Origin: Kofleriaceae bacterium
GTDB taxonomy: Bacteria; Myxococcota_A; Polyangia; Haliangiales; Haliangiaceae
Length of the DNA stretch: 64,000 nucleotides
NCBI GenBank assembly: GCA_024762925.1
Contig: JANTGM010000010.1
Coordinates: 1 to 64,000 of the forward strand
Reading direction: 5' to 3'
The first letter of the stretch is position 1, and every line of letters begins with the position of its first letter. Shown here one piece after another: positions 21,152-36,147 of the stretch. Both the position numbers and the translations under genes were made by a program. The notes beneath the pieces were generated by a model that was given only the letters and a program-made list of their open reading frames with translations, was not told where the DNA came from and did no database searches.

Positions 21152-21315
21152 CGCGCTCGACTATACGACGCACGGCAAACCTATGCGAAAGGCTCTGCGA
21201 AGTTGATGCTCGGCTCGGAATCCTCAGAGGACAACATAGGCACATTCGGCCCTGCGGGGGACACACTCGCACCAACGCTGCAGTCGCAAGAGAATCTTCC
21301 AAGGGGCCAAGGGCA

Positions 21316-23058
21316 ATGATATCCTCCTCGTCGCGAGGTGTGGATGCGAGGCAGTGCGTGACCAAGCGAAGTCGAACAAAACTTGTCGACGCCCTTGAAG
21401 AGTTGGTGGCTCTGCAGACTCTTGCAGAAGGGGGCCGTGCGAGCTTTCGGGCGCGCGCCTTTGCCCAGGCCGCCAAGGTTGTTGCAGACGACGCCGGGAC
21501 ATCCAACATGTCACTGGCCCGACTCAAGGCACTGCCTGGCCTTGGCAAGTCAACGGCCGAAGTGATTCAAGAGTACTTTCGAACTGGCAAGATTGCGCGG
21601 CTGGAGGAGTTGCGTACACAGTATCCTCGGGAACTCGTAGAGCTCACACGCATTCCAGGGTTGGGGGCAAAGACCGTTCTGCGGTTGCGCGATGAAGCTG
21701 GCATTTGCAATCTAGCGGGCTTGCAGAAGGCGATTCGCGAGGAACGCGTGGGCAAGCTACCTGGTCTTGGAGGCTGGACAGAAGAGCGCATGCGGACGGC
21801 GATTTCGCATATCGGTGCAAAGCATGATCGGCGGCCGATTCACATCGTCTTGCCCATTGCCGAGTCGATCCGAAACGAGCTTGCCCACCTACCAGAAGTT
21901 TCTGGAGCATATCTCGGTGGCAGTCTGCGCCGATTGGAATCGACGATTGCTGATGTTGATGTGCTCGTTGTCTCCGAAGAACCCGCAAGTGTTCTCTCGT
22001 TTTTTCTCGAGATGCCGCGCGTTACCGATGTGATTGTCGAAGGGAAACACATGGCGTCGGTCTACGTGGAAAGCGGACTGCAGGTGGATCTTCGCGTGTG
22101 CACACCAAACGAGATTGGTCCGGCGATGTTGCATTTTTCGAGTGGGCGCAATCACAACATTCAGCTTCGCATGCATGCGCACGATCGAGACCTCTCGCTC
22201 AATGAGCATTCGCTGCACCATCGCGGAACCGACGATGTCGTCTCACAAGGATCGGAAGAGGAACTCTACGAGCTTCTTGGGTTGCCCTGGATTTCTCCAG
22301 GGTTGCGGCAGGGACGCGGCGAAATCGCCGCCGCACTTGAGAACAGCCTTCCACATCTCGTTGATGTGGACTGCCTGCAAGGCGATCTGCGCACCAACTA
22401 CGACGAGTCAGAAGGCGTGGAGCTCGTGTTGGAGGCGGCTCGGGCGCTGGGCTACAGCTATCTGGCGATCGCAAGTTCTGCTGAGGAGTCCGCAGCAAAA
22501 AAGCGTGTGCAGTCAGAGGTTGGCCAGTGGCGCGACCGAACCTCGGACCTCTTGATTCTGCATGCTGGCGTGGTGGCAATCGACGATCAGGGATATTCTG
22601 AGTACTCAGAAGAAGACCGAGCCAACTATGACTTCTGCATCGCCTTGCTCGACGGGCACCACCAGCTCTCGGAGTCAGAGCAGACCGAGAGGTTGATCAC
22701 GGCGATGGAGGATCCCGCAGTGCGGATTCTGGCACAGAGTAGTGGTCGTCAAATCGGTGAGTTTCGCGGGATTGAGTTTGATGAGCGAGCGGTACTTGAA
22801 GCCGCAAGGGAAAATGATGTGGCGATTGAGATTGGCTCGGAATTGACCCGACTCGATCCACCGTCCGCGTTTATTCGACGAGGTAGCGAAGCGGGTAATC
22901 TCTTCGTGATTAGTTCCTGCGCAAAAAACGCTGAGGAACTGCAGCAAATTCAGTACGGCATTCGACACAGCCATCGCGGATGGCTCGATCGAGCCATGTG
23001 CATCAATACATGGAAGCGGGCCCGGTTTGAGGAATGGCTGCAGGCGCCGTATTCGTAG
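21316..23058 (+). CDS. polX: DNA polymerase X family protein with a C-terminal PHP (3'-5' exo/phosphoesterase) domain
   Basis: Helix-hairpin-helix motifs (LPGLGKSTAEVI, IPGLGAKTVLRL). Pol-beta palm motifs (GSLRRLESTIADVDVLV, DLRV). The PHP region carries His/Asp clusters (LHFSSGRNHNIQL, DGHHQ). ATG at 21316; the longer ORF-track start would overlap the convergent HD gene. Confidence 0.8.
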   Translation: MISSSSRGVDARQCVTKRSRTKLVDALEELVALQTLAEGGRASFRARAFAQAAKVVADDAGTSNMSLARLKALPGLGKSTAEVIQEYFRTGKIARLEELRTQYPRELVELTRIPGLGAKTVLRLRDEAGICNLAGLQKAIREERVGKLPGLGGWTEERMRTAISHIGAKHDRRPIHIVLPIAESIRNELAHLPEVSGAYLGGSLRRLESTIADVDVLVVSEEPASVLSFFLEMPRVTDVIVEGKHMASVYVESGLQVDLRVCTPNEIGPAMLHFSSGRNHNIQLRMHAHDRDLSLNEHSLHHRGTDDVVSQGSEEELYELLGLPWISPGLRQGRGEIAAALENSLPHLVDVDCLQGDLRTNYDESEGVELVLEAARALGYSYLAIASSAEESAAKKRVQSEVGQWRDRTSDLLILHAGVVAIDDQGYSEYSEEDRANYDFCIALLDGHHQLSESEQTERLITAMEDPAVRILAQSSGRQIGEFRGIEFDERAVLEAARENDVAIEIGSELTRLDPPSAFIRRGSEAGNLFVISSCAKNAEELQQIQYGIRHSHRGWLDRAMCINTWKRARFEEWLQAPYS

Positions 23059-23230: not shown

Positions 23231-24424
23231 CTAAGGAGCTATGGCGAGTTTCCGCTTGGTATTCATGCGCACCGCCAGTCGCTTGGCGCCCCACGTGCCC
23301 GGCGTTTCTTCAAAAAGACCGGCACAGGCTTCACCACAGCGGTTGCAGCATCCCTTAGCGTCGAGATTCCATTCGCTCAGCTGATACCAGTTGCGGCCTA
23401 CAAGGCGCTGCTGACACCCGTGACAGTAGGTGCTGTGTCCTTCTTCGTCATGCACGTTGCCCGTGTAGACGTAGCGAATCCCGTATTCCTGGGCGATGGA
23501 TCGCGAGCGGCGCAGGCTCTCTTTGGACGTTGGATCGCGATCACGCATGCGGTAGTCGGGGTGAAAGGCGGAAAAGTGCCATGGCACATCGACTCCAATG
23601 TTTTCCACAATCCACTGACAAGCGTCGTGAACTTCGTGCTCAGAGTCGTTCTCCCCTGGGATTAGCAGTGTTGTGATTTCAAACCACGTATCTGTTTCGT
23701 GCTTGAGATACGTGAGCGTGTCGAGGACCGGCGTGAGCTTGCCTGTGCAAAGTTTCTTGTAGAAGTCTTCTGTGAACCCCTTCAAATCGACATTGGCCGC
23801 ATCGATGTGTTCAAAGAACTCTTTGCGAGGTTCGTCGTGAATGTAGCCTGCTGTGACCGCAACAGTTTTGATGCCGAGATCGTGACACGCCAGCGCTGTG
23901 TCGACCGCATACTCTAAGAAAATTACTGGATCGTTGTAGGTGAAAGCGACAGACTTGCAGTTGTTGTCTTTCGCTGCCTTGGCGATTGCCAGTGGCGTGG
24001 CTGCGTCGGCGAGAGTGTCAACCTCGCGGGACTTGCTGATGTCCCAGTTCTGGCAAAATGTGCACGTCAGGTTGCAGCCAGCGGTGCCAAAGGAGAGCAC
24101 GGGGGTGCCAGGGAGAAAGTGGTTCAGGGGCTTCTTCTCAATCGGATCCACACAGAACCCGCTGGAGCGTCCATAGGTGGTTAACACCATTTCGTCGCCT
24201 TCACGGGCACGCACAAAGCAGAGTCCCCGCTGCCCTTCCTTGAGCTTACAATCCCTGGGACATAGGGTGCACTGCACCTGCCCATCAGCTGTCCTACGCC
24301 AATAGCGCGCTGGAAAGTGACTTGCATCTGTCTCGTTCGTATCCACTCTGTACAAGGTGCGACCTAGATTGAGGAAGTCAACTATCATGTCCCAAATGCT
24401 CAGACCGCCCGCCGTTGCAGGCAC
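23231..24424 (-). CDS. AmmeMemoRadiSam system radical SAM enzyme
   Basis: CxxxCxxC cluster CNLTCTFCQNW. N-terminal ARYW...DGQVQCTLCPRDCKL and a C-terminal CxxC (CHGCQQRL) fit the AmmeMemoSam_rS family. It is divergent from Memo/AMMECR1. Start uncertain (24424 GTG or 24388). Confidence 0.8.
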   Translation of the reverse strand: MPATAGGLSIWDMIVDFLNLGRTLYRVDTNETDASHFPARYWRRTADGQVQCTLCPRDCKLKEGQRGLCFVRAREGDEMVLTTYGRSSGFCVDPIEKKPLNHFLPGTPVLSFGTAGCNLTCTFCQNWDISKSREVDTLADAATPLAIAKAAKDNNCKSVAFTYNDPVIFLEYAVDTALACHDLGIKTVAVTAGYIHDEPRKEFFEHIDAANVDLKGFTEDFYKKLCTGKLTPVLDTLTYLKHETDTWFEITTLLIPGENDSEHEVHDACQWIVENIGVDVPWHFSAFHPDYRMRDRDPTSKESLRRSRSIAQEYGIRYVYTGNVHDEEGHSTYCHGCQQRLVGRNWYQLSEWNLDAKGCCNRCGEACAGLFEETPGTWGAKRLAVRMNTKRKLAIAP

Positions 24425-25175
24425 GTTTTACTCTTCCAATCGCAATGACTTAGCCGCTGCGGTGCACGGATACTTGGATGAGGCTCCGGCTCTCACGCTC
24501 ACACCAAAAGCGCTCATTGTGCCTCATGCAGGCCATGTGTATTCCGGCCCAATCGCCGCCACAGCCTTTCGCTTGCTTGTGCCGCTTGCGCAAACGATTT
24601 CGCGGGTTGTGCTCATGGGGCCCTGCCATCGGGTCGCTGTTGATGGGCTTGCGCTCTCCAGCGCCGATCGGTTCTCAACGCCTTTGGGCGAGGTGGATCT
24701 CGATACGGCCGGAGCTGCAACCCTCGCCGAGCTGTCATGCGTGGGCTACTCCGATGCCGCTCACGCCCAGGAACACAGTCTCGAAGTGCAGTTGCCATTT
24801 CTTCAACAAACGCTCGGCCCGTTTCGCCTTCTTCCGATTGTGTGTGGTCGCGCAACTACTGCACAAGTTGCGACGGTGCTTGACGCTGTCTGGGGTGGGC
24901 CTGAAACGCTTATCTTGATCTCATCGGATTTGAGTCACTTTCACGATTATGAGACTGCTCGGCGCATGGATCTTCAGGCGACTCGGGCGATTGAAGAGCT
25001 CGCTCCAGAAAAACTCGCAGACGTGAATGCGTGTGGGGCCACGCCTGTTCGCGGCTTGTTGCAGGTGGCGCGCAACCGGGGGCTCGTCGAGACGACACTG
25101 GACGTGCGCAACTCCGGAGATACGGCTGGGGCGAAAGACCGAGTTGTCGGCTATGGAGCCTACAGTTTTGCCTAA
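24387..25175 (+). CDS. MEMO1-family protein (AmmeMemoRadiSam system protein B)
   Basis: RBS GAGGAAG precedes the ATG at 24387. The motifs AGTFYSS and PHAGHVYSGP are typical of Memo. Confidence 0.8.
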   Translation: MSQMLRPPAVAGTFYSSNRNDLAAAVHGYLDEAPALTLTPKALIVPHAGHVYSGPIAATAFRLLVPLAQTISRVVLMGPCHRVAVDGLALSSADRFSTPLGEVDLDTAGAATLAELSCVGYSDAAHAQEHSLEVQLPFLQQTLGPFRLLPIVCGRATTAQVATVLDAVWGGPETLILISSDLSHFHDYETARRMDLQATRAIEELAPEKLADVNACGATPVRGLLQVARNRGLVETTLDVRNSGDTAGAKDRVVGYGAYSFA

Positions 25176-25770
25176 CAGCGGCACAGGTCAGCACATTGCC
25201 GACAATGATCGGGCAAGCCTTCTGGCGGTCGCACACCGAGCTGTGGCTCATGGAACGGAGTCGCGGCATCCTCTAGATATTCGCTCGGAAAAATTCTCAG
25301 AGGCTCTCGAGGCGGTAGAAGCCGCATTCGTATCCGTGTATGTCGACGGGCAGCTGCGCGGCTGCACCGGAGAACTCGAAGCTTATCGAAGCCTTGTCTC
25401 GTCGGTTGTGCACAATGCACACCGGGCCGCTTTCCTCGACGACAGATTTCCCGCAATCCAGGCAGCGGAGTTGCCTCGTTTGCGCATTCGCATTTCGGTG
25501 CTCACGCCCCAGGTGCCCTTGGAGTTTCGCGATGAGAACGACTTGCTTCGCAAGCTTGAGCCGGGCGTCGATGGTCTAACGATCCGAGCCAATGGGCGCC
25601 AGGCAACCTTCTTGCCGTCCGTTTGGGACACCGTTTCTGTGCCCGCTGAGTTTCTCGCTCATCTCAAGCATAAGGCGGGGCTGCCACTCATACCGATACC
25701 TGGACTAAAAGCCATGCGTTATCAGACCGAGAACTTTGGCGATGACGAACGAGCAAGCCAGCCTTCATGA
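25153..25770 (+). CDS. AMMECR1-domain protein (AmmeMemoRadiSam system protein A)
   Basis: The FVSVYVDGQLRGCTGEL block matches the AMMECR1 RGCIG core. The gene overlaps the Memo 3' end by 23 nt (translational coupling). Confidence 0.75.
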   Translation: MEPTVLPNSGTGQHIADNDRASLLAVAHRAVAHGTESRHPLDIRSEKFSEALEAVEAAFVSVYVDGQLRGCTGELEAYRSLVSSVVHNAHRAAFLDDRFPAIQAAELPRLRIRISVLTPQVPLEFRDENDLLRKLEPGVDGLTIRANGRQATFLPSVWDTVSVPAEFLAHLKHKAGLPLIPIPGLKAMRYQTENFGDDERASQPS

Positions 25771-26527: not shown

Positions 26528-28660
26528 TTGTGGCTTGTCAGCTATAATTCTCTCTTGGCTGAGGAGCGCATCGATTCGTACGCAAGCAATGCGCTCCCCA
26601 TTGGTACTGCGTTGCTCACCTTGCTCTATTTGGTGCACACACTTCTGTACCTCTCGGGCACAACGAACCCTGACGGCTCAGAAGCACCTGCAGGCCTGGC
26701 ACTTGTGACAGGCGTTTCGACTTTCATCTTTGCCGGCGCATCACTCTATGCCTTTCGAGACCATCGCAACCGAGCAATGGATTCGCATCTGATTGGTGTT
26801 TGTGCGTTGCTGGTTCTCGCGAATGTCACCATTCACTTTGGTGCGAGCAAAGATATCTGGCACGGCTACAACTTCATCTTCTACCAGATCGCTGTTGGTG
26901 CTCTCATCACCTCGACACCGTGGCTGCTGGTGTTGTTGGCTCTCACAGCTGTGTCGGGCGCGGGTGCAGCGTACGTTGGCTTGGGAAGCGTGCCCTGGGG
27001 CTTGTTTGTCGCAATGGCAACCATTGGTTCCCTGTTGAGCATCTTGCTGCACGCTACGCGTCGTTATGCAGTCGGTCGATTGCAGAAGATGACCATACAA
27101 GCCGAACGCAGCCAGCGAGAAGCCGAAGCGGCCCTGAGGGCCTCTGAGGAAACAGCTCGCAGTCTCGAACGTGCGCAACACGACATGCAAGGCATTCTAG
27201 ACAAGAGTCCCGAGGCTATCTTGATTCAAAGGGATGGGAAAATTGCTTACATGAATCCGGCGTTCCTTGACTGTCTCCGGATCGATGAAGACGACGCAAT
27301 CGGGCAACCCGTCCAGACGCTCTCGCTTGATGGCAAGAGCCTACCGATGACTCGAACGCAAGCCATGCTCAAGCGCACTGATGGACAGGCGGTCTTGATG
27401 CAGCTGTCAGAACCTGCCTTGGTTCAATACCAAGGCCACAGCTCATCGCTTGTCATGGGACGTGACATCACCGAGAAAGACAGCGAACTACAGGCCAAGC
27501 TCGTACTCGCGGATCGAATGGCTGCAGTGGGAGTGCTTGCTTCGGGCGTCGCCCATGAGATCAACAACCCCATGGCATACGTCCTCGGAAACCTCGAGGT
27601 ATTGGACGCCGACCTCAACGCGCTCACTCCGGGGATGAAGGATGAACACCGGACTGAGCTTCGTGAACTCATTGCGGACTGTCTTCACGGTGGCCGACGA
27701 GTTGGTGAAATCGTCAAAGAGCTGCGGATCATTGCGCATCCGGAGGACTCAGAGTTGGCTGGCGATTTGTGCCAAGCGATCAAGTCTGCTGAGAGGATGG
27801 CCAGCAATCACATCCGTCACAAGTCGAGCAGCATGGTGGTGTCGATTCCCGATGATGTGCCCACGGTTGCAGCGAGTACCGCAAGGCTCTCGCAAGTCTT
27901 TCTCAATCTCCTCATCAACGCCGCACAATCTCTTGATGCGAGAGACTCTCGTAATCAAATCACCGTAACGGCTCGCGTCGCTAAATCGGCGACTGCCATT
28001 GAGGTCGAAGTGCGCGACACCGGATCGGGTATGACGCCCGAATCTCAGAGAAGGCTATTCGAGCCCTTCTTCACCACCAAAGACGTAGGAGAGGGTAGCG
28101 GCCTTGGACTCTATTTCTGTCGCAATGAGATGGCTCGGATTGGTGGCACGATTGGCTTTGAGAGCGAGGTTGGTGTTGGGTCGAGTTTTCGAGTCACGAT
28201 TCCCATCGCGGAAGGCACCGATAGGGAGAAGGTATCAGTGTCGTCGCACGTCACCCCCTCAAAACTCGGCGTGCTAATCATCGATGATGAGCCATTGGTC
28301 GCTCGGTCGTTGGGGCGATTGCTTGTTGGTCACGACGTGTCGATCGCCAGAACAGCAGCCGAAGCGTTCGAACTACTGGACAAGAAGGACTTTGACATTA
28401 TCTTTTGTGACTTGATGATGCCGGAGGTCTCGGGCGCTGAGCTCTACGAGCAAGTCACGACGAAGCGAAGCGAGCTCTCAGAACGATTCGTATTTATCAC
28501 GGGAGGCTCTTTCTCTCCTGGCAACGACGCGATGCTAGAGAAACGCACCAACCAAGTGCTCTACAAACCGTTCACAAAGGTGGCTCTTGAGGCGGTGCTC
28601 GCAAATGCTACTAGGCGCCGTGAGGAAACTCCGTCGACGGCTATGACTTCTGGTCCTTGA
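26528..28660 (+). CDS. Membrane-bound hybrid sensor histidine kinase (TM-PAS-HisKA-HATPase-REC)
   Basis: N-terminal TM helices. The PAS segment has the coiled linker EAEAALRASEE. The H-box is GVAHEINNPMAYVLGNLE. The ATPase N/G boxes are LLINAAQSL, DTGSGM and GSGLGL. The C-terminal receiver is VLIIDDEPLV...CDLMMPEVSG. Confidence 0.85.
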   Translation: MWLVSYNSLLAEERIDSYASNALPIGTALLTLLYLVHTLLYLSGTTNPDGSEAPAGLALVTGVSTFIFAGASLYAFRDHRNRAMDSHLIGVCALLVLANVTIHFGASKDIWHGYNFIFYQIAVGALITSTPWLLVLLALTAVSGAGAAYVGLGSVPWGLFVAMATIGSLLSILLHATRRYAVGRLQKMTIQAERSQREAEAALRASEETARSLERAQHDMQGILDKSPEAILIQRDGKIAYMNPAFLDCLRIDEDDAIGQPVQTLSLDGKSLPMTRTQAMLKRTDGQAVLMQLSEPALVQYQGHSSSLVMGRDITEKDSELQAKLVLADRMAAVGVLASGVAHEINNPMAYVLGNLEVLDADLNALTPGMKDEHRTELRELIADCLHGGRRVGEIVKELRIIAHPEDSELAGDLCQAIKSAERMASNHIRHKSSSMVVSIPDDVPTVAASTARLSQVFLNLLINAAQSLDARDSRNQITVTARVAKSATAIEVEVRDTGSGMTPESQRRLFEPFFTTKDVGEGSGLGLYFCRNEMARIGGTIGFESEVGVGSSFRVTIPIAEGTDREKVSVSSHVTPSKLGVLIIDDEPLVARSLGRLLVGHDVSIARTAAEAFELLDKKDFDIIFCDLMMPEVSGAELYEQVTTKRSELSERFVFITGGSFSPGNDAMLEKRTNQVLYKPFTKVALEAVLANATRRREETPSTAMTSGP

Positions 28661-28891
28661 CTACAATGCGGCAGTTTCCAAGCCAGCTTGCGATATTGCC
28701 CTTGCCCCAATAGTTGGGTTTTTGTTCTTGGCGAGGGAGCGACGTTGCAGCTCTATGGACGCTCGCAACTCCATAGTCGTTGGCGTGGACAGGCTGCGCC
28801 ACCAGCAAAAGCAACAAGAGGCCCACGAGCAGAATCCGCATGAGGCCTAATACGAGCGGGGGCTTCATCCGTTGCCTCGTATCTCGGCTTT

Positions 28892-28934
28892 CGTGCTCCA
28901 GAGCGAAGCATGTGGAGTGCTCCAGAGCGAAGCA
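28892..28934. repeat. 18-bp direct repeat (gtgctccagagcgaagca x2, spacer tgtgga) about 95-135 bp upstream of the MVP start
   Basis: Read directly: cgtgctccagagcgaagca tgtgga gtgctccagagcgaagca. Confidence 0.6.
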
Positions 28935-29025
28935 GCCAGTCATGCGCGTCTCGAACTTCCGCGCACCTAGCCCCGGCATACGACTTGCTCTCATGCACCG
29001 CGAACCCCAGAAAGGACGATTGCTT

Positions 29026-31041
29026 ATGGCCGAACGCGACATTCGAGAACGAGATATTTTGGTAGCCCCAAACGAATATGCTTACGTGCAAGACTTAACC
29101 AAAGGCGACATCGTGCTCTACGTCGGTCCCACCAAGGTTAGTCTCAGCAATACCGAGCGCATGATTGAGCATCGCGATGGCCGTTTTGTGCCTGTGCGAG
29201 GCGATGAGGCCGGTATGAGCGTGCACCGTTTTGTCGGCGCGACTTCATCGCAATACATTATTCTTCAGAACCCTCCCAAAGATCCGGAAACGCAGGCTAC
29301 CAAGGGCGCCAACTCAGCAGTGCTACTAGAAGTTGGTCGCACGCTTGTTGTGCCCGGTCCGGCGGAGTTTCCTTTGTGGCCAGGGCAGACCGCTCGTGTC
29401 GTGGACGGTCATCGCCTGCGCGAGAATGAGTATCTCGTATTGCGGGTCTATGATGATGACGGCCAGGGGTCGCCCATTGGCACCGAAAGCATTCTGCGAG
29501 GAAGCGATCAGAGTTTTTATCTGCCAACAACGGGGCTCGAAGTGGTGCCCAATCGGGATGGTAACTATGTGCGCACGGCTTGGCGCTTGGACCACAGTCG
29601 AGGACTGCACTTGCGGGTGACAGCCAGCTTCGAGACGGGGGAGGAGGACCTCTTGCCACCAGGGCGCTACCAGGCTGGCCAGGATGTCTTCTTGCGGGGA
29701 GGTGCTGGTTTCTTCTTTCCAAACAGCAGTATCCACGTCGTCGCAGAGGTCGAAGCGATTCCTTTGGCGGAGAAAGAGGGGATTTATGTGCGAGACCTTG
29801 AGAGCGGCGGGGTACGCACCGTGGTTGGTCCGCAGAGCTATCTAGTCGATCCGACAAAAGAAGAACTCGTAGGAAGACCTCTAAGTGACGAGGTTCGAGC
29901 GTCCTGGAGGATTTCCAAGTACAGCGCAAAGCGCGCTCCTGCGATCTACGTGCCTCCCAGCGAGGCTGTCTTGATTATCGCGCCCAGTCGGCGAGAACTC
30001 GTGATGGGGCCGCAAGTTCGGGTGCTCGATTTTGATGAGGAGCTTGAGGTTTTGCAGCTGAGCACCGGACGGCCAAAGAGCAACGCCAACCTACTCGATA
30101 CCTGCTTCCTGCAAGTGCAAGGCAACAAGGTCTCGGATCGCGTGCAGTTGCAGACCGCCGATCACGTTGATCTCATGGCGACGCTCTCGTATCGCGTCTC
30201 GTTTGTCGGAGACAACGAGAAGTGGTTTGCTGTGCGCAACTACGTGGAGCTCTTGTGCGATCATCTTGGCTCGATCATTCGATCGGCAGCGCGCGCAACC
30301 ACGATTCACGACTTTCATGGATCATCGGCTCAGGTGCTGCGCGACGCTATCTTAGGATGCCACGAAGATTCCGGTGCCCGGACTGGTCGTCACTTCGAAG
30401 AGAATGGGATGTGGGTCTACGATCTTGAGGTTCTCGATGTGAGCATTCAGGACACCGACGTTCTGGAGATGTTGCAAAGTTCGCAGCGGGCCGCGATAGC
30501 CAGTGCGATTCATCGCAGTAGTGAAGATCGACGACTTGGAGACGAGCAGCTCAAGGAGTCTGTCAATTTGCGAATCATGAAGAGCCAAATTGCGACCCTT
30601 CAACAAGCCGCTGAACACGAGGCGACAAGTCGCGGTGTCGAGCTAGCGCGCACTGGCACACGGCTCGAAATCGATCGCATGGACAGAGTTGGACGGGCAA
30701 AGAACGCGGCTGACGCAGCATCCATCACCAACACAGCCCAACTTGCGTTGCAAAGCGCCAAGGCCGAACTTGAGGCCCAAGCCCTCGCAGCAAACGCAGA
30801 CGCCTTTTGCCAACAGATGCAGAGCCTCCAACCGGAACTCATCGCAACCTTGAAGAGCTTGGGCAACAAGCAACTCGCCGGCGAGCTCACAAAGAACTTG
30901 GCACCACTCGCTATCCTAGGTGGCGACTCAGTTGCCGATGTTGCCTCGCGGCTCCTTGAGAGTCTGCCAATGACCGGCAGCGCCGGCGGAATTCGCGATC
31001 TCCTTGTGGCTCCGGCGTGCGCTGCCACCGAAGAGGACTAG
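29026..31041 (+). CDS. Major vault protein (MVP) homolog
   Basis: RBS AAAGGA lies 9 nt before the ATG at 29026. [34 protein letters not shown] matches human MVP [49 protein letters not shown]...[19 protein letters not shown] matches VLSLSAGRPKRPHARR...IETADHARLQLQLAYNWHF. The N-terminus has MVP-repeat-like beta modules. An SPFH-like shoulder and a C-terminal coiled cap-helix region follow. Confidence 0.85.
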   Translation: [671 protein letters not shown]

Positions 31042-31059: not shown

Positions 31060-31335
31060 TTCGGTCGTCTGAGTCCCGATCTTCAGCGCCCTGCTCGTGC
31101 GCGATTCATGAAGATAGAACGCGCTCACTGGTCTTCTCGCCCGCTGACTTCGCGATCACGAATCAATGTTCATGGATCGCGCACTCGTGTCGGGGCCAGG
31201 AGCATAGAACCCTCTCGCTCGCTTTCTTGCCCTCTGAACGCGCTGGCATGGCCAGCGCTCTTCGTTGCTCCACGCCTTTCTTACCCCGGTAAGGTCGTCG
31301 TTCGCGCCTTGCCAGAGAACAAGCTTCGCGCGAGG
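31060..31335. repeat. Composite intergenic repeat: 90-bp MITE (31096-31185, TIR cgtgcgcgattcatgaa / ttcatggatcgcgcactcg) followed by a family-2 hairpin element (31195-31335)
   Basis: The terminal inverted repeats were read directly. The body matches 13130-13270. It contains the hairpin ccttacc-ccg-ggtaagg. Confidence 0.8.
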
Positions 31336-31515
31336 AGATCTATGCTCCTGAAGTGCACACGCAGGCCGCAAGAGGTTGTGCTCTTGGCATCATGCCCTCA
31401 GGAATGTTGCGTTTTTCGGGCTTGGACGGACTGCGAACTTCTCCAGAGCCTCCAAATTCGCTCAAGAAATCGGGCAACAGTGCCGAATTCCCATACGGAC
31501 GAGATTGTTGCGAGC

Positions 31516-33924
31516 ATGGGGAATCGAGGAAGATTGTCAAACCGCTTATCAAGTGTATTGCTGGCCTTAGTGCTTTGGTCTTGTGGAGACCGCGTACCTG
31601 GCCCGCCGATCGTTGAGTCGGTGATGCCCTCAAGCAAACCGGCAGGAGCCGCTCTCAACATTGCGATCAGGGGAAGCGCCTTCTACCAATTCACGAGCGC
31701 GAACCTCGACGATAAGAAGCCAGCCCGAGCAGATGATCGTTTCACGGCAACGCTTGTACGGAGCGGGTTGCTGCCCATCGAGCTTGAGGGTGTTGCGTGG
31801 ACCAATCTTACGAGCCTAAGCGCGGTGGTGCCGGGAGGACTTGAAGTTGGCAGCTACGACTTGGTGGTTACTGGACCTTTGGGGGCATCGAACACCCTGG
31901 TTGGAGCGTTTACTGTCTGTGCTGACGAGGATGGCGATGGCACATGTGGATGCATCGATCGCGACCGTGACGGTTTTGGCGCGGAAGGGGACCAGAGCAC
32001 ATGTGCCAACGTGGGCAACGACTGCAACGATGCCGTAGACTCGATCTTTCCAGGTGCCCCCGAGGTGGCCGACGACACTGTCGATCAAGACTGCAATGGA
32101 AATGACACCGTTAGCTGTTTTCTCGATGGCGATATGGATGGGTTCGGAACCGACTTGGGAACGATCAAGCTCGCTCCCGACGGTTCTTGCGAGACATCTC
32201 AACAGGAGTCAACTGTCGCAACGGATTGCGATGATTCGCAAGCAAGCACGTTTCCGGGGGCAGCTCCCAATGATGGCACTGAGTGCATGAAGGATGTTGA
32301 TGGCGACGACTTTGGCGACCAGAATCCACCTGCTCCGGTCACTCCTGGAAGCGATTGCGATGACATGTCCACAGGTTGTGTGAGTGACTGCATTGATGCG
32401 GATTTCGATGGCACGCCGGTTTGTGCAGGCGATTGTGATGACAGCATTGCCACTGGAGTTTCTTGCACCACAGGGTGCACGGTATTCCTTGCCGACGCCG
32501 ATGGCGATGGCTTTGGCGATGCGTCCAGTCCTGCTTCCGCAGCGAGCTGTGTGGCGCCGACTGGCTTTGTCGCCAATAGCACCGACTGCGATGACAATCC
32601 TCTCGCTTGCGGCAGTAGCTGCTTTCCTGGCAACCCGGCAGCCGATATTTGTGACGGCGACAACCAAGACTGCGATGCTTTGCTCGATGAGAATCCGGAC
32701 GTTGTTTGGTTCGCGGATGCCGATGGTGACAACTTCGGAAACCCCGCAAGCTCAACCAATGCTTGTACGCAGCCAGCGGGGTTTGTCGCAAACAATCTAG
32801 ACTGTGCAGACAATCCTGCTGGGGATGCAGTATGTGGGGGCCTCAATGGCAACTTCTGCAACCCTTTGGCTGGTGAGGGGCCTAGTGGCGACGCAACGTG
32901 TGGAGACAACGCTGACAACGACTGCGACACCGATACGGATGACGCTGACGCGGATTGCACGGCTACCACGACGACCATCACGTTGCGCTTTGACAACTCG
33001 GGCATCGGAGAGAATCTCATAGACTTCCCTGTACTCGTGACCTTGACGCCTGGCAACTTCGACTATGGCAGCGCCGAAGTCGACGGATCCGATTTGCTCT
33101 TCGAAGATGATGACGCTTCCACCGTGCTGCCTCACGAAATCGATGTATGGAATCCGGGTGGCACTTCGCAGATCTGGGTCTTAGTTCCGCAGATCGACGC
33201 CGGCTCATCAACCGATCACATCTTTCTTACGTATGGCGACGTTGGCATTGCACCAGGGGAAGACGCCGACACCTTGTGGAGCGCGTATCACGGTGTTTGG
33301 CATATGCAAGAGAATGGAGATGGCACGGCTGATGAGTTCAGAGACAGCTCGCCACAGAACAATCATGGTCAGGGTGGCGGTGGCGATGCATCTCGGGTTC
33401 CCAATCTCGTCGCGGGGCAAATCGGCAATGGGCAGACCTTCGATGGCGACAATGATCGCATCCTCATTAGCCCAAGCGACAGCTTCAACTTTTCCGAAGA
33501 CGCGGTATCCATGGAGTACTGGGCCTCTCCAAACCTCACGGGCGGCCCGATGGTGGCGATTGGCAAGGGAGGCTTTCCCACCGGCTACCGCAGCGGCATT
33601 GAGTTCGATGGGCGCGTTGGATGGCTGGTGGCTGGCACGTTGCTCGATACGGTCGTGGTGGCATCTGCCGAATTCCACCACATCGTCGTTACCTGGAATG
33701 GCAGCACGATGCGAACCTACGTCGATGGTGTCGAGCGAGCAAGCCAGAGTAAAGGCGGCAGTCTGGGAACGAATTCTAGTGACTTCTTTATTGGTCGCGG
33801 ACCGATCGGTTTTGAATTCCGAGGCATCATCGACGAGGCTCGCGTGATCAACGAGGGGCTTTCTGGGCCTTGGATTGAGGCGCAGTTTCGCACTACGAGT
33901 AACACCTACATCACCTTCGAGTAG
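31516..33924 (+). CDS. Large secreted lipoprotein: about 10 Cys-rich Asp-rich modules (putative metal-binding/MopE-like), then a DUF2341-like domain, then a LamG/concanavalin-A-like lectin domain
   Basis: ATG at 31516 gives a signal peptide LSSVLLALVLWSCGD. Repeated DCDDxxxxxxPGAxExxDGxDxDCDG modules are present (for example ATDCDDSQASTFPGAAPNDGTECMKDVDGDDFGD). The C-terminus has ITLRFDNSGIGENLIDFPVLV...DHIFLTYG and VAGQIGNGQTFDGDNDRILIS...HHIVVTWNGSTMRTYVDG, as in LamG (Laminin_G_3) domains. The ORF-track start at 31108 lies inside the repeat element. Confidence 0.65.
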   Translation: MGNRGRLSNRLSSVLLALVLWSCGDRVPGPPIVESVMPSSKPAGAALNIAIRGSAFYQFTSANLDDKKPARADDRFTATLVRSGLLPIELEGVAWTNLTSLSAVVPGGLEVGSYDLVVTGPLGASNTLVGAFTVCADEDGDGTCGCIDRDRDGFGAEGDQSTCANVGNDCNDAVDSIFPGAPEVADDTVDQDCNGNDTVSCFLDGDMDGFGTDLGTIKLAPDGSCETSQQESTVATDCDDSQASTFPGAAPNDGTECMKDVDGDDFGDQNPPAPVTPGSDCDDMSTGCVSDCIDADFDGTPVCAGDCDDSIATGVSCTTGCTVFLADADGDGFGDASSPASAASCVAPTGFVANSTDCDDNPLACGSSCFPGNPAADICDGDNQDCDALLDENPDVVWFADADGDNFGNPASSTNACTQPAGFVANNLDCADNPAGDAVCGGLNGNFCNPLAGEGPSGDATCGDNADNDCDTDTDDADADCTATTTTITLRFDNSGIGENLIDFPVLVTLTPGNFDYGSAEVDGSDLLFEDDDASTVLPHEIDVWNPGGTSQIWVLVPQIDAGSSTDHIFLTYGDVGIAPGEDADTLWSAYHGVWHMQENGDGTADEFRDSSPQNNHGQGGGGDASRVPNLVAGQIGNGQTFDGDNDRILISPSDSFNFSEDAVSMEYWASPNLTGGPMVAIGKGGFPTGYRSGIEFDGRVGWLVAGTLLDTVVVASAEFHHIVVTWNGSTMRTYVDGVERASQSKGGSLGTNSSDFFIGRGPIGFEFRGIIDEARVINEGLSGPWIEAQFRTTSNTYITFE

Positions 33925-34219: not shown

Positions 34220-35509
34220 TCAGACATCATCTGAGGCCTCAATGCCGTAGGGCACGCCGCTTGGGCAGCCGTGCATAGCAAGGAGCTTTCCGTTTTCGTC
34301 AATGGACAAGAACCGGTGTGCTTCCGTGATCTCTGGCCATTGAGTGCCTCTTGCCTGCTTGAGGCGAACTGCTGCGCTTACGGGGTGGGATCGAGCCCTA
34401 TTTCTCTTTGCGATTTCTTCTGAGGGACAGTGAAATGCAGCGATCGTCACCAGAGCACCATAGTCAACCGCCATGGCGATGACAGCGCTGCGGAAGTCAG
34501 TTCTAAGTGACGTGGCGTCCCAGACGACTTTTCGCTTTGCGCGCAGATGCTCCCGTAGTTCCTCCTTCGCCATGCGCAGGACCTTAGAGTTATTCTGTTG
34601 GTCTTCACGTCGAGACAAGGATGCCCGGATATCGTCAAGAGACACGACCTTGTGGTCGCCAAGGTTCTTGCCAATCCAGGTCGTTTTTCCGCTGCCGCTG
34701 AGCCCAGTGGTCACAACAACTTCAGGAAATTCGTCACGGTAGCCATACGACTTCGCAATCGCTTCTTCTGGAGTCGCGATGACGCCATCTTCGCGGTCCG
34801 ACGTTGCTTTGGCGACCACGAGATCGATTGTTGCTCCCGAGTGTCCCGCCAGGGCCTCTCTGATCTCATCGTTCCACAAGTCGCGCTCTTGGGTGTGCCA
34901 TACGTCGTACTCCTCTGCGAACATCCGAAACATCTCGAGATGCTCTAGCTGAGTTTCCTTGTCGCGACATTCACGTCCTCGGATGTCGGCAACTTCCAAC
35001 CAATAGATGAGTTCGAGGTCCACCACACGACTCAGCCTTCTGTAGGCGCCTGGCGACTGATTGCGCAAGACGAGTTTCTTTAGAGCGTTGTGATAGCCCG
35101 TGAGTGCCATGACTGAGTTGAGCAATGGAAAGCGCATGGTACCTGCGAGTTGAAGAGCCAAGTACGAGCGACCTTGCAGTTCATGACGAGGGCAGACAAG
35201 CCGGATGCGACCATCGATTTCACGCTCTTTTGTGGTGGTTGGTTTGGCGATGTCATGGAACGCCGAGCCCATGACAAGGGCCGCTCGCCTTGCAGGTGAG
35301 ATACCGTTGAGATCCGCGTCCAGTAGTTTGTAGGTCTCATCCAAGACCATCTGCGTGTGGATAAGGACGTTGCCCTCTGCATGCCATTCTGGGTCTTGCG
35401 GCGTGCCTTCTAGCTCATGGAGCAAGGGCAGCCGGTCGCCTAGATCATCGATAATGTCACTCATCGATGGCGAGCCACCGCTCGCGATGTGATCAATGAT
35501 ATCGCTCAT
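34220..35509 (-). CDS. Bifunctional RNA/DNA end-healing enzyme: N-terminal HD 2',3'-phosphoesterase domain fused to a C-terminal P-loop 5'-OH polynucleotide kinase domain (HD-Pnk architecture)
   Basis: The HD domain EWHAEGNVLIHT...GSAFHDIAKP resembles the HD domain of CCA-adding enzymes. The Walker A is VVVTTGLSGSGKTTWIGKNL, with Walker B VVWDATS and lid residues typical of T4 Pnk/zeta-toxin-like kinases. Start/stop overlap (ATGA) with the upstream RNA ligase gene. Confidence 0.65.
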   Translation of the reverse strand: MSDIIDHIASGGSPSMSDIIDDLGDRLPLLHELEGTPQDPEWHAEGNVLIHTQMVLDETYKLLDADLNGISPARRAALVMGSAFHDIAKPTTTKEREIDGRIRLVCPRHELQGRSYLALQLAGTMRFPLLNSVMALTGYHNALKKLVLRNQSPGAYRRLSRVVDLELIYWLEVADIRGRECRDKETQLEHLEMFRMFAEEYDVWHTQERDLWNDEIREALAGHSGATIDLVVAKATSDREDGVIATPEEAIAKSYGYRDEFPEVVVTTGLSGSGKTTWIGKNLGDHKVVSLDDIRASLSRREDQQNNSKVLRMAKEELREHLRAKRKVVWDATSLRTDFRSAVIAMAVDYGALVTIAAFHCPSEEIAKRNRARSHPVSAAVRLKQARGTQWPEITEAHRFLSIDENGKLLAMHGCPSGVPYGIEASDDV

Positions 35510-36147
35510 TGCTCTTCTCCTTCTTGGGAAGCCAGGCGGTTTGGAACAACGGGCTTGTGCATCCAGTGCTCTTCACTTTGAATATGGTTTGTGCGGACCC
35601 ACTTGGCAACTGAATCACCAAAGTCTGCATACGCAAAACGACTCGCCAGGCGCACTACGTAGCCTTCGGTGACAGAGGTGTCGGGCGCCAACTCTCGCAA
35701 AGCGTGTTCGTCGTAGATGCCGTCGAAGAGCACTGGCACGTGAGCGAGCCCCAAGAGCGCCGCCCACTCAACTGTCTCATCCCAGCTCAAGCAATGGTTT
35801 TGCTCGTTCCAAACCGAAAACATGAGAAAGAAACTTGGAAGCGCTGCATAGGCAATGGAATGGAGGGCGTAGAGGTTCTCCCCACAGACACGCCAGCCCT
35901 CGGGGATTTGGTGCGCCATGCGTCCGTGCATCGCCTTCACCCAGTCTCGTGAAGGGTGATGGCGACCATCGATTGAGCGAGCGTGAAGACCGTCTCGGTA
36001 GAGGCTAGTGTTTTCGCCGTCCATCTTCTCGGTCACGATGACGCGTTGGCCCCGGAAGGGCAGTAGAGAATCGGCAAAGAGGTCGTCTGAGGTAGATCCG
36101 GGGGACCACGGCAAGTGCCGTGTCCGCGGGTATTTTACGCGGTGCAT
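35506..36147 (-). CDS. ATP-dependent RNA ligase (PF09414-like nucleotidyltransferase)
   Basis: N-terminal KYPRTRHLPWSPG followed by motif I VTEKMDGEN (KxDGxN adenylylation lysine). Later motifs ENLYALH (III-like), EGYVVR (IV) and KWVR (V-like) are present. 213 aa. Confidence 0.65.
   Translation of the reverse strand: MHRVKYPRTRHLPWSPGSTSDDLFADSLLPFRGQRVIVTEKMDGENTSLYRDGLHARSIDGRHHPSRDWVKAMHGRMAHQIPEGWRVCGENLYALHSIAYAALPSFFLMFSVWNEQNHCLSWDETVEWAALLGLAHVPVLFDGIYDEHALRELAPDTSVTEGYVVRLASRFAYADFGDSVAKWVRTNHIQSEEHWMHKPVVPNRLASQEGEEQ

What the first reader, a model, noticed from the sequence alone, without database searches (positions are those of the whole stretch)
29026..31041. Bacterial homologue of the eukaryotic major vault protein
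The 671-aa product aligns block-for-block with human MVP across the shoulder/SPFH region ([28 protein letters not shown] vs [34 protein letters not shown]...ETADH conserved). It also carries N-terminal MVP-repeat-like modules and a C-terminal coiled cap-helix segment. Vault particles are a eukaryotic hallmark; bacterial MVP genes are rare and of unresolved function. This gene has its own RBS, lacks a signal peptide and has no TEP1/vPARP partners nearby. A sensor hybrid kinase lies upstream and a giant Cys-rich LamG lipoprotein downstream. Whether this bacterium assembles vault-like shells, and what they hold, is open.
Basis: partly seen in the sequence, partly recalled or inferred. Interest (0 to 1): 0.8.

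Follow-up and report, generated by a model that had tools for sequence, protein, structure and literature searches.

The report
Short bacterial major vault protein homologue
This gene really does encode a bacterial relative of the protein that builds eukaryotic vault particles, but such relatives are common in bacteria and already described, so it is an untested member of a known family rather than a discovery.

Summary
ORF 29026-31041 (+) encodes a 671-aa soluble protein that matches major vault protein (MVP) well beyond its SPFH/band-7 core:
- Pfam MVP_shoulder 4e-26, with Vault_3 and Vault_4 above their cut-offs.
- Rat and human MVP 7e-32 by sequence and 3e-54 by profile.
- Foldseek 1e-35 to whole MVP chains and 1.5e-15 to the repeat-only R1-R7 crystal.
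- Canonical SPFH cage proteins only about 1e-6.

A confident AlphaFold model (pLDDT 86) shows six MVP beta-repeats (eukaryotes have nine), a shoulder, a helix of about 125 residues and a short C-terminal tail.

The claim of rarity is wrong. The short form has at least 390 relatives, mostly in Myxococcota. A longer 800-930-aa form has at least 6,510 sequence clusters across many phyla. Myxobacterial MVP homologues were reported in 2013 and 2019, and JGI already labels them "major vault protein".

The gene appears monocistronic. No neighbour is conserved in 64 related genomes, or even next to a 73%-identical relative, so the kinase and LamG neighbours are incidental.

The likeliest function is self-assembly into a shorter vault-like cage. 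This is inferred, not shown.

The N-terminal repeat and an S-x-G-x-P-K loop are the most conserved parts. That loop aligns with the human NAD+/ADP-binding "keyhole" loop.

Verdict: new member of a known kind, moderate interest.

The parts
29011..29016 (+). Shine-Dalgarno-like AAAGGA, 9 nt upstream of the ATG
   Evidence: Read directly from the sequence. The start at 29026 is confirmed by the family alignment.
29026..31041 (+). MVP-family gene: 671 aa, 73.4 kDa, pI 5.15, soluble
   Evidence: ORF and translation. Pfam MVP_shoulder, Vault_3 and Vault_4. PDB MVP 6.7e-32 by sequence and 2.7e-54 by profile. Foldseek 1.2e-35. No hydrophobic segment.
29026..29205 (+). Repeat a (aa 1-60), the most conserved part of the protein: [31 protein letters not shown]
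   Evidence: Column conservation is 0.87 for aa 1-60 and 0.99 for aa 21-40 over 120 homologues. The same motif opens the 800-930-aa prokaryotic homologues. hhalign aligns aa 11-36 to aa 245-270 of the Vault_4 repeat (probability 79%, E 1.6e-5). The AF2 model shows a beta domain with pLDDT >90.
29206..29730 (+). Repeats b, c and d (aa 61-118, 119-180, 181-235)
   Evidence: Three consecutive small beta domains with pLDDT >90 in the AF2 model. Foldseek match to the murine MVP R1-R7 crystal, E 1.5e-15, TM 0.57. aa 138-240 align to human MVP 284-375. Some relatives carry one extra 46-aa repeat after about aa 183.
29731..29925 (+). Repeat e (aa 236-300), equivalent to eukaryotic R8, with a short helix insert
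   Evidence: Pfam Vault_4 at aa 244-292, 30.1 bits. Aligned to human MVP 376-440. Helix 288-293 in the model.
29926..30120 (+). Repeat f (aa 301-365), equivalent to eukaryotic R9
   Evidence: Pfam Vault_3 at aa 325-362, 31.6 bits. Aligned to human MVP about 455-519.
30061..30078 (+). S-T-G-R-P-K loop (aa 346-351), aligned with the human 'keyhole' loop S-A-G-R504-P-K506
   Evidence: Alignment. S346, G348, P350 and K351 are invariant over 150 sequences at 29-72% identity. In human MVP, R504, K506 and R511 of this loop contact the NAD+/ADP diphosphate (PMC12280208).
30121..30453 (+). Shoulder, an SPFH-type alpha/beta domain (aa 366-476)
   Evidence: Pfam MVP_shoulder at aa 367-476, E 4.3e-26, covering 3-118 of 118 profile positions. 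Fold-level matches to HflK/C, prohibitin, flotillin and stomatin at about 1e-6.
30454..30822 (+). Cap helix (aa 477-599), one continuous helix
   Evidence: AF2 helix 477-599. Aligned to the rat MVP cap helix, 647 to about 800. It has the lowest domain conservation by the fraction measure (0.61); the C-terminal tail scores lower only because of its unconserved last residues.
30823..31038 (+). C-terminal tail (aa 600-671): two short helices carrying the conserved PELIATLK...PLAILGG.SVA.V..RLL motif, then an unconserved end
   Evidence: Helices 604-629 and 636-645 with low pLDDT. Conservation is 0.76-0.82 for aa 601-640 and 0.19 for the last 11 residues. Equivalence to the eukaryotic cap ring is not established.
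31240..31258 (+). Terminator-like GC hairpin about 200 nt after the stop codon
   Evidence: Consensus scan. It lies before the likelier start of the next gene, Met79 with lipobox LLASC. This is a pattern match only.

Best explanation
The gene encodes a soluble, stand-alone prokaryotic member of the major vault protein family. From N- to C-terminus it has six MVP beta-repeat domains, an SPFH-type shoulder, a cap helix of about 125 residues and a short conserved helical tail.

The most likely mechanism follows eukaryotic MVP and every structurally solved SPFH-plus-helix protein:
1. Many copies pack side by side through the repeats and shoulder.
2. Their long helices bundle into a closed cap, giving a ring-shaped dome.
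3. Two domes may then pair through the extremely conserved N-terminal repeat. The result would be a closed cytoplasmic cage with a barrel about one third shorter than the nine-repeat eukaryotic vault.

No dedicated partner gene is needed. Cargo is unknown. The invariant S-x-G-x-P-K loop at the repeat/shoulder junction corresponds to the human loop that holds the phosphates of NAD+/ADP(-ribose) between neighbouring subunits. Binding of a small nucleotide, or a conserved lateral contact, is therefore plausible.

**Shown:** homology, domain architecture, solubility, conservation pattern, absence of conserved neighbours.

**Inferred:** oligomerisation, closure into a two-halved cage, ligand binding.
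For: - **Homology over nearly the whole length.** Pfam MVP_shoulder, Vault_3 and Vault_4 pass their cut-offs. PDB MVP scores 6.7e-32 by sequence and 2.7e-54 by profile. Foldseek gives 1.2e-35 to full MVP chains, 1.5e-15 to the R1-R7 repeats alone and only about 1e-6 to SPFH cages.
- **Architecture.** The AF2 model from 150 sequences has pLDDT 85.9 and pTM 0.65. It shows six beta domains, an alpha/beta shoulder and helix 477-599.
- **No membrane anchor**.
- **Assembly precedent.** All known SPFH-plus-helix proteins assemble laterally into domes, and half-vaults dimerise through the N-terminal end of MVP (PMC13100048; PMC12624060).
- **Conservation pattern.** The N-terminal repeat is the most conserved region (0.87, against 0.61 for the cap helix). 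It is kept even in homologues with different repeat numbers. That fits an interface.
- **Keyhole loop.** S346, G348, P350 and K351 are invariant over 150 sequences and align to human R504-K506.
- **Stand-alone gene.**
  - No non-MVP gene cluster occurs in more than 9 of the 64 loci plus the window.
  - No Pfam family occurs in more than 5 of 93 adjacent genes.
  - Neighbours differ next to relatives at 73% and 66% identity and around four long-form genes.
  - In the window, the gene is preceded by a 365-bp gap.
  - It is followed by a terminator-like hairpin.
Against: - No prokaryotic MVP has been purified or imaged in any paper I could find.
- Only a monomer could be modelled here, so there is no oligomer prediction.
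- The model is weakest for the C-terminal tail, which would close the cap (pLDDT <55).
- The N-terminal profile does not hit eukaryotic R1 by sequence. Equivalence of the "waist" interface is therefore unproven.
- Of the human nucleotide-pocket residues, only the loop scaffold (P505, K506, L517) is kept. The positions aligned to R437, H509, R511 and W545 are E, A, L and V.
- Published multimer modelling of a five-repeat Asgard homologue gave only a 10-mer cup with a modest ipTM of 0.525 (PMC12962969).
Confidence: 0.55

Rival explanations
1. The protein forms an open half-cage (a single dome or ring), as canonical SPFH proteins do. The dome caps a patch of inner membrane, or another large structure, instead of pairing into a closed two-halved particle. 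It would act as a scaffold or quality-control enclosure.
For: - Fold-level similarity of the shoulder and helix to HflK/C, prohibitin, flotillin, stomatin and erlin domes.
- Canonical SPFH family members form half cages, and even eukaryotic vaults were seen docked on membranes in situ (PMC13100048).
- A shorter barrel of six repeats gives a shallower cup.
- JGI labelled some members "HflC (stomatin/prohibitin superfamily)".
Against: - No transmembrane, amphipathic or lipidation motif upstream of the SPFH domain. The N-terminus is charged and is followed by six soluble repeats.
- Pfam Band_7 does not match at E<=0.01.
- No FtsH- or NfeD-type partner gene is adjacent in any of 64 loci.
- The strongest conservation lies at the far N-terminal end. 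In MVP that end is the dome-dome interface, not a membrane anchor.
Confidence: 0.25
2. The protein does not build a cage at all. The MVP-like fold is used as a soluble, elongated nucleotide- or ligand-binding protein or adaptor, monomeric or a small coiled-coil oligomer.
For: - The invariant basic loop matches the human nucleotide-binding loop.
- No cargo or partner genes are linked.
- Repeat number varies freely across the family, with about 6, 7 or 9-10 repeats. This shows the barrel height is not tightly constrained.
Against: - In human MVP the nucleotide pocket exists only between two neighbouring subunits (PMC12280208), so the loop's conservation itself implies lateral assembly.
- An exposed helix of 123 residues is unlikely to be stable without bundling.
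- Every solved SPFH-plus-helix protein is a large ring.
Confidence: 0.12
3. The gene is a recent transfer from a eukaryote, or eukaryotic contamination of the assembly, and is not a native bacterial gene.
For: Daly et al. 2013 proposed eukaryote-to-bacterium transfer for cyanobacterial MVPs, which are 54-56% identical to eukaryotic MVPs (PMC3762200).
Against: - Identity to rat MVP is only about 28% over 410 shared columns.
- GC content is flat at 0.55-0.61 across the window.
- The flanking genes are typically bacterial: a hybrid histidine kinase, a lipoprotein and an AmmeMemoRadiSam enzyme.
- The gene has a bacterial RBS and no introns.
- Hundreds of relatives at 50-73% identity sit on Myxococcota contigs of up to 9 Mb.
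- In a neighbour-joining tree all prokaryotic forms group apart from rat MVP on a long branch.
Confidence: 0.02

Closest known systems
Eukaryotic major vault protein (rat or human MVP; PDB 4V60, 9BW5)
   Same: - Same order of domains: tandem MVP beta-repeats, SPFH-type shoulder, long cap helix.
- Sequence E 7e-32, profile E 3e-54, Foldseek E 1e-35.
- Shared IPL-x-E-x-EGIYV-x-D and S-x-G-R-P-K...T-A-D-H motifs.
- Soluble and acidic.
   Different: - Six repeats instead of nine. The N-terminal motif lies about 315 residues before the keyhole loop; in human MVP that loop is at residues 504-506, and I did not measure the eukaryotic spacing.
- The continuous helix is 123 residues in the model. The profile alignment needs several insertions on the rat side.
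- There is no clear cap-ring equivalent.
- Only about 28% identity.
- No TEP1, PARP4 or vault RNA in the window, and no vault particle has been demonstrated.
Previously reported bacterial MVP homologues: Corallococcus coralloides H8MNI3, Plesiocystis pacifica A6FXM1 and A6FXE2, Enhygromyxa salina A0A0C2D5V5, Saprospira, Microscilla, Herpetosiphon (Daly 2013, PMC3762200; Sokolskyi 2019, 10.1101/872010)
   Same: - Same phylum for the myxobacterial entries.
- Same level of similarity to eukaryotic MVP (about 25%).
- Same MVP_shoulder annotation.
- Same status: predicted in silico to fold like MVP, never tested.
   Different: - I could not retrieve those UniProt sequences, so direct orthology is untested.
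- The reported bacterial mean length is 822 aa (10.1101/2023.11.10.566534), whereas this subfamily is 665-685 aa.
- All 64 genome hits to this subfamily's N-terminal patterns were uncultured MAGs.
Long (800-930 aa) prokaryotic MVP-like family found here
   Same: - Same N-terminal motif (ERDLVL-x-PNEYAYV-x-D-x-TKG...YVGP-x-K-x-SL).
- Same S-x-G-x-P-K loop, shoulder and C-terminal PLA-x-LGG motif.
- 31-40% identity, E 1e-76 to 1e-148.
- Also monocistronic with unrelated neighbours.
   Different: - About three to four more repeats.
- Far wider phyletic spread: Bacillota, Eremiobacterota, Desulfobacterales, Bacteroidia, Chloroflexota, Gammaproteobacteria.
- In a simple NJ tree the short clade groups with three 745-946-aa forms apart from the other long forms. 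This suggests, but does not prove, repeat loss.
Asgard archaeal MVP homologues (PMC12962969)
   Same: A prokaryotic MVP with a reduced repeat number (five), shoulder and cap helix. Function unknown and cage formation only modelled.
   Different: Different domain of life. Half of the ten Asgard homologues group in a clade that includes eukaryotic MVPs in that study. No direct comparison was made here.
Canonical SPFH cage proteins (HflK/C, stomatin, prohibitin, flotillin, erlin)
   Same: SPFH fold followed by a long helix that bundles into a domed ring. Foldseek E 7e-7 to 1e-4.
   Different: Those proteins have a membrane anchor upstream of the SPFH domain and no MVP repeats. This protein has six repeats, no anchor and no Band_7 Pfam match.

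Membership tests
Major vault protein family (Pfam MVP_shoulder plus Vault repeats) | MVP-type shoulder (SPFH-like) domain | tested here: met
   PF11978 at 91.7 bits against a cut-off of 25, aa 367-476, covering profile positions 3-118 of 118.
Major vault protein family (Pfam MVP_shoulder plus Vault repeats) | Tandem MVP beta-repeat domains N-terminal to the shoulder | tested here: met
   Vault_3 31.6 bits (cut-off 28.8) and Vault_4 30.1 bits (22.9). Foldseek to the R1-R7 crystal at E 1.5e-15. Six beta domains in the pLDDT-86 model.
Major vault protein family (Pfam MVP_shoulder plus Vault repeats) | Nine repeats (R1-R9), as in vault-forming eukaryotic MVPs | tested here: not met
   Six repeats from the model and from spacing: about 315 residues from the N-terminal motif to the keyhole loop, against 470-520 in the main mode of long prokaryotic forms. 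The number varies within the prokaryotic family, and five are reported in Asgard.
Major vault protein family (Pfam MVP_shoulder plus Vault repeats) | Long cap helix directly after the shoulder | tested here: met
   Continuous helix 477-599, aligned to rat MVP 647 to about 800.
Major vault protein family (Pfam MVP_shoulder plus Vault repeats) | C-terminal cap-ring region that closes the cap | tested here: inconclusive
   A conserved helical motif at aa 601-647, but with pLDDT <55. The alignment to rat MVP ends at residue 810.
Major vault protein family (Pfam MVP_shoulder plus Vault repeats) | Self-assembly into a many-fold symmetric half-shell and a two-halved closed particle | not testable with these tools
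   Only monomer prediction was available. This needs multimer modelling or EM.
Eukaryotic vault ribonucleoprotein (whole particle) | Minor components TEP1 (TROVE/NACHT/WD40), PARP4 and vault RNA | tested here: not met
   The 64-kb window has no Rfam family at gathering score. No TROVE or PARP domain appears among the roughly 27 window proteins scanned. Adjacent genes in related loci share no family in more than 5 of 93 cases. The rest of the genome is unseen.
Canonical membrane SPFH proteins (stomatin, prohibitin, flotillin, HflK/C) | Membrane anchor (transmembrane, amphipathic or lipidated) upstream of the SPFH domain | tested here: not met
   The maximum 19-residue hydropathy is 1.04, and that peak lies in the C-terminal tail. 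The N-terminus reads [10 protein letters not shown].
Canonical membrane SPFH proteins (stomatin, prohibitin, flotillin, HflK/C) | Match to the Band_7 (PF01145) profile | tested here: not met
   Not among the Pfam matches at E<=0.01. There is fold-level similarity only, at about 1e-6.
Prokaryotic MVP-like family (as delimited here and in Daly 2013 and Sokolskyi 2019) | Conserved N-terminal repeat motif, invariant S-x-G-x-P-K loop, MVP_shoulder and C-terminal PLA-x-LGG motif, encoded as a stand-alone gene | tested here: met
   Alignments A1, A4 and A5. Motif scan. Neighbourhood analyses.

The most novel reading that the evidence does not exclude
The six-repeat myxobacterial protein self-assembles into a closed "mini-vault". 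Its conserved subunit-interface loop binds an NAD-derived or other nucleotide, as in human vaults. The vault cage, with its nucleotide pocket, would then be an ancient and widespread prokaryotic invention with a tunable barrel length of 6, 7 or 9-10 repeats. This short form would be a minimal, genetically self-sufficient model for working out what vaults are for.
Probability: 0.3. Interest if true: 0.65.

Novelty: new member of a known kind. Interest (0 to 1): 0.35.

Why it matters
The function of vaults has been unknown for about 40 years, and whether prokaryotes build vault-like cages has never been tested.

What this gene adds is modest:
- It shows that a compact six-repeat form is common in Myxococcota.
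- It shows that prokaryotic MVPs are far more numerous and more widely spread than the literature's "a few Bacteria".
- It shows that they are always stand-alone genes.
- It shows that their most conserved features are the N-terminal repeat and the loop that binds nucleotides in human vaults.

These points make a cheap experiment well defined: express a 73-kDa bacterial protein and look for particles and bound nucleotide. The gene's existence and its identity as an MVP homologue are not new.

Tried and rejected
- **Conserved operon partner.**
  - tblastn of all window ORFs against 64 related genome loci returned only generic kinase-domain hits.
  - All-against-all clustering of locus ORFs was run first with a naive caller. 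That caller picked antisense ORFs in high-GC DNA, so I redid it with a GC3 filter.
  - I then ran Pfam on 93 adjacent genes.
  - I also inspected six further contigs. Nothing is conserved.
- **Equivalence of the N-terminal repeat to eukaryotic R1.** A 30-sequence N-terminal profile found no MVP in the PDB, and Pfam at E<=10 found nothing on aa 1-245. The resemblance I recalled to the human N-terminus is therefore not claimed.
- **Internal repeat detection by hhalign.** Only repeat a vs repeat e reached significance. The repeat count rests on the structure model.
- **First AF2 run.** With 19 sequences it gave pLDDT 68.6, with the N-terminus unmodelled. It was superseded by the 150-sequence run.
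- **Defence-system or named-family membership.** No PADLOC hit and no NCBIfam model.
- **Viral relatives.** None of this subfamily in IMG/VR.
- **AFDB search.** The afdb50 library was unavailable.
- **Naming the source organism.** The exact protein is on an unnamed NCBI contig and one Logan run. Only the affiliation of its relatives (Haliangium, Kofleriaceae, Polyangiales) can be given.
- **Longer ORF from TTG 28780.** Rejected on the alignment evidence.
Full report
**1.

The + strand carries an ORF ending at 31041, and translating 29026-31041 gives 671 residues. The mechanical ORF list extends it to a TTG at 28780. The family alignment shows that homologues begin at the ATG at 29026, with an almost invariant [27 protein letters not shown]. 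An AAAGGA sits 9 nt upstream.

The similarity is far beyond chance:

| Test | Result |
|---|---|
| phmmer vs PDB, human MVP | E=6.7e-32, query 138-606 vs MVP 284-771 |
| 19-sequence family profile vs PDB, rat MVP | E=2.7e-54 |
| Pfam MVP_shoulder | 91.7 bits (cut-off 25) |
| Pfam Vault_3 | 31.6 bits (cut-off 28.8) |
| Pfam Vault_4 | 30.1 bits (cut-off 22.9) |

**2. The similarity is not just a generic SPFH domain**

It is not met.
- Pfam Band_7 is not among the matches.
- A first AlphaFold model from 19 sequences was mediocre (pLDDT 68.6).
- A second model from 150 sequences reached pLDDT 85.9 and pTM 0.65, with residues 6-490 mostly above 90.
- Foldseek with the second model gives E=1.2e-35 to full-length MVP chains and E=1.5e-15 (TM 0.57) to the murine R1-R7 crystal, which contains only repeats.
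- HflK/C, prohibitin, flotillin, stomatin and erlin cages reach only about 1e-6.

**3. Anatomy**

The model shows six small beta domains at about aa 1-60, 61-118, 119-180, 181-235, 236-300 and 301-365. They are followed by:
- an alpha/beta shoulder (366-476);
- one continuous helix (477-599);
- two short, poorly predicted helices (604-629 and 636-645).

The last two repeats carry the Vault_4 and Vault_3 matches and align to eukaryotic R8 and R9. The protein has no hydrophobic segment, is acidic (pI 5.15) and weighs 73.4 kDa. It is therefore an MVP with six repeats instead of nine.

**4. It is not rare**

- A word-indexed search found 390 clusters (at 90% identity) at 50-73% identity. Nearly all are 665-725 aa. 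Their names include Haliangium, Haliangiales, Kofleriaceae, Labilithrix, Archangium, Myxococcaceae, and some Planctomycetota and Acidobacteriota.
- A scan of one genome per species found 64 loci. All are MAGs, mostly Myxococcota, plus one Methanosarcinales archaeon at 37% identity.
- An exhaustive HMMER search of 1.84 billion representatives at 50% identity gave 1,158 hits at E<=1e-3 and 509 at E<=1e-30.
- Most strong hits are 800-930 aa at 32-40% identity. They open with the same N-terminal motif and carry the same S-x-G-x-P-K loop.
- The distance from the N-terminal motif to that loop varies while the C-terminal part is constant. It is about 315 residues here, about 360 in a subfamily with one extra 46-aa repeat, and 470-520 in the main mode. 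Repeat number therefore varies: about 6, 7 or 9-10.
- Searching with a profile of the long form returned at least 6,510 clusters at E<=1e-10. Named sources include Bacillota, Eremiobacterota, Desulfobacterales, Bacteroidia, Anaerolineae and Ca. Venteria. JGI labels many of them "major vault protein".
- A simple neighbour-joining tree on 410 shared columns, rooted on a rat MVP fragment, puts the short forms in one clade. That clade groups with three 745-946-aa forms. The seven-repeat forms fall inside the short clade. Rat MVP sits on a long branch outside all prokaryotic sequences. Identity to rat is 24-28%. The tree is indicative only.

**5. It is already in the literature**

- Daly et al. 2013 listed bacterial sequences about 25% identical to eukaryotic MVPs, from Corallococcus coralloides and Plesiocystis pacifica (Myxococcota) and from Microscilla, Saprospira, Flexibacter and Herpetosiphon. 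They predicted these fold and dock like MVP (PMC3762200).
- Sokolskyi 2019 analysed homologues from Myxococcales, Cytophagales and Oscillatoriales (10.1101/872010).
- A 2023 preprint added phage copies and gave a mean bacterial length of 822 aa.
- A 2026 paper reported five-repeat Asgard homologues and a modelled decameric cup (PMC12962969).
- I found no paper that purified or imaged a prokaryotic MVP assembly.
- NCBIfam has no model for the family, and PADLOC does not list it.

**6. Genomic context**

Within the window:
- A 365-bp gap separates the upstream hybrid kinase from the gene.
- The gap holds a terminator-like hairpin after the kinase, a divergent 75-aa ORF with a signal-peptide-like start, and an 18-bp perfect direct repeat.
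- Downstream, a terminator-like hairpin at 31240-31258 precedes the likelier lipoprotein start of the LamG gene.
- The gene therefore looks monocistronic.

Across relatives:
- Across the 64 related loci plus the window, no non-MVP gene cluster occurs in more than 9.
- No Pfam family occurs in more than 5 of 93 adjacent genes.
- The window's kinase and LamG genes are not found next to homologues.
- Relatives at 73% and 66% identity have entirely different neighbours.
- Four long-form genes from different phyla are likewise isolated among unrelated genes.

The rest of the window is ordinary chromosome: an AmmeMemoRadiSam pair, PolX, a Ser/Thr kinase, an RNA-ligase and kinase pair, a LysR regulator, a symporter and a glycoside hydrolase. 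It has flat GC and no RNA family hits.

**7. Conservation pattern and what it suggests**

Over 120 homologues, the N-terminal repeat is the most conserved part (0.87, and 0.99 for aa 21-40). The cap helix scores only 0.61. A C-terminal motif at aa 601-647 is again conserved. Over 150 sequences spanning 29-72% identity, S346, G348, P350 and K351 are invariant.

By the alignment, this loop is the human S-A-G-R504-P-K506 "keyhole" loop. Lodwick et al. 2025 showed that its R504, K506 and R511 hold the diphosphate of NAD+/ADP in a pocket formed between two neighbouring subunits (PMC12280208). ADP-ribose has also been seen there in native human vaults. Other pocket residues (R437, H509, R511, W545) are not conserved here. 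I therefore treat nucleotide binding as possible, not as predicted.

In eukaryotic vaults the N-terminal end forms the contact between the two halves. The extreme conservation of repeat a across forms with different repeat numbers fits such an interface. However, an N-terminal profile does not detect eukaryotic R1 by sequence. Only a repeat a to repeat e similarity is detectable within the protein.

**8. Most likely mechanism and rivals**

All solved proteins with an SPFH domain followed by a long helix assemble laterally into large domes. Eukaryotic MVP adds repeats and pairs two domes.

| Explanation | Confidence | Main argument |
|---|---|---|
| Soluble homo-oligomeric, shorter vault-like cage that needs no linked partner | 0.55 | Domain architecture, solubility, conservation pattern, stand-alone gene |
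| Unpaired dome docked on membrane or another structure | 0.25 | Weakened by the lack of any anchor |
| Non-cage adaptor | 0.12 | Weakened by the 123-residue exposed helix and the inter-subunit nature of the conserved loop |
| Recent eukaryotic transfer or contamination | 0.02 | Contradicted by divergence, context and the size of the prokaryotic family |

**9. Verdict**

The finding is a correct identification of a bacterial MVP homologue. It is a new member of a known, large and experimentally untouched prokaryotic family, and it belongs to a compact six-repeat form centred on Myxococcota. It is worth a simple expression-and-EM experiment, but it is not a surprise to a specialist. Interest 0.35.

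Noticed in passing
window 28893-28910 and 28917-28934: A perfect 18-bp direct repeat, GTGCTCCAGAGCGAAGCA, occurs twice with 24-bp spacing, 92-133 bp upstream of the MVP-like start codon. It occurs nowhere else in the window, and 0 matches are expected by chance. It is a candidate regulator-binding site in the promoter region.
   Followed up: partly
window 28641-28868 (-): A 75-aa ORF lies divergent from the MVP-like gene, between it and the kinase. Its start looks like a signal peptide (MKPPLVLGLMRILLVGLLLLLLVAQPVHA). It is also called as a gene on an independent Logan contig. It has no Pfam match.
   Followed up: partly
window 31108-33924 (+): This is the downstream ORF with Laminin_G_3, MopE and DUF2341 domains. 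The first 78 codons do not look like a signal. Met79 (31342) gives MLLKCTRRPQEVVLLASC with a lipobox, so the true start is probably there. That leaves about 300 bp and a terminator-like hairpin after the MVP-like gene.
   Followed up: partly
window 23231-24424 (-) and 25027-25770 (+): An AmmeMemoRadiSam system radical SAM enzyme (TIGR04337, 637 bits) and protein A/AMMECR1 (TIGR04335) lie about 600 bp apart on opposite strands. An unannotated 146-aa ORF sits between them, and no Memo-like gene was identified.
   Followed up: no
window 34220-36147 (-): Two overlapping genes look like a small RNA-repair cassette. One encodes an RNA ligase (PF09414). The other encodes a 428-aa protein with an AAA_33 / Pnkp-like kinase domain.
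   Followed up: no
window 20824-23058 (+): A 744-aa protein carries DNA polymerase beta thumb and helix-hairpin-helix domains (PolX-like).
   Followed up: no
L063 8320-10602 (Methanosarcinales MAG contig CAZYIM010000027.1): An archaeal bin carries a homologue of the short bacterial MVP-like family at 37% identity over residues 7-649. It could reflect inter-domain transfer or a binning error.
   Followed up: no
BFVD entry A0A3G5A4K1 (Harvfovirus sp., 802 aa): A giant-virus "prohibitin domain-containing protein" matches the whole model at Foldseek E=8.7e-14 over 814 columns, far better than other viral SPFH proteins. This suggests an MVP-like protein in a giant virus.
   Followed up: no
alignment A1, insertion after window aa ~183 (e.g. 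P0094, P0097, P0113): Myxococcaceae, Archangium, Planctomycetota and Acidobacteriota relatives carry a 46-aa insertion with the sequence pattern of one extra MVP repeat. In the NJ tree these seven-repeat forms nest inside the six-repeat clade. This implies recent gain or loss of a single repeat.
   Followed up: partly
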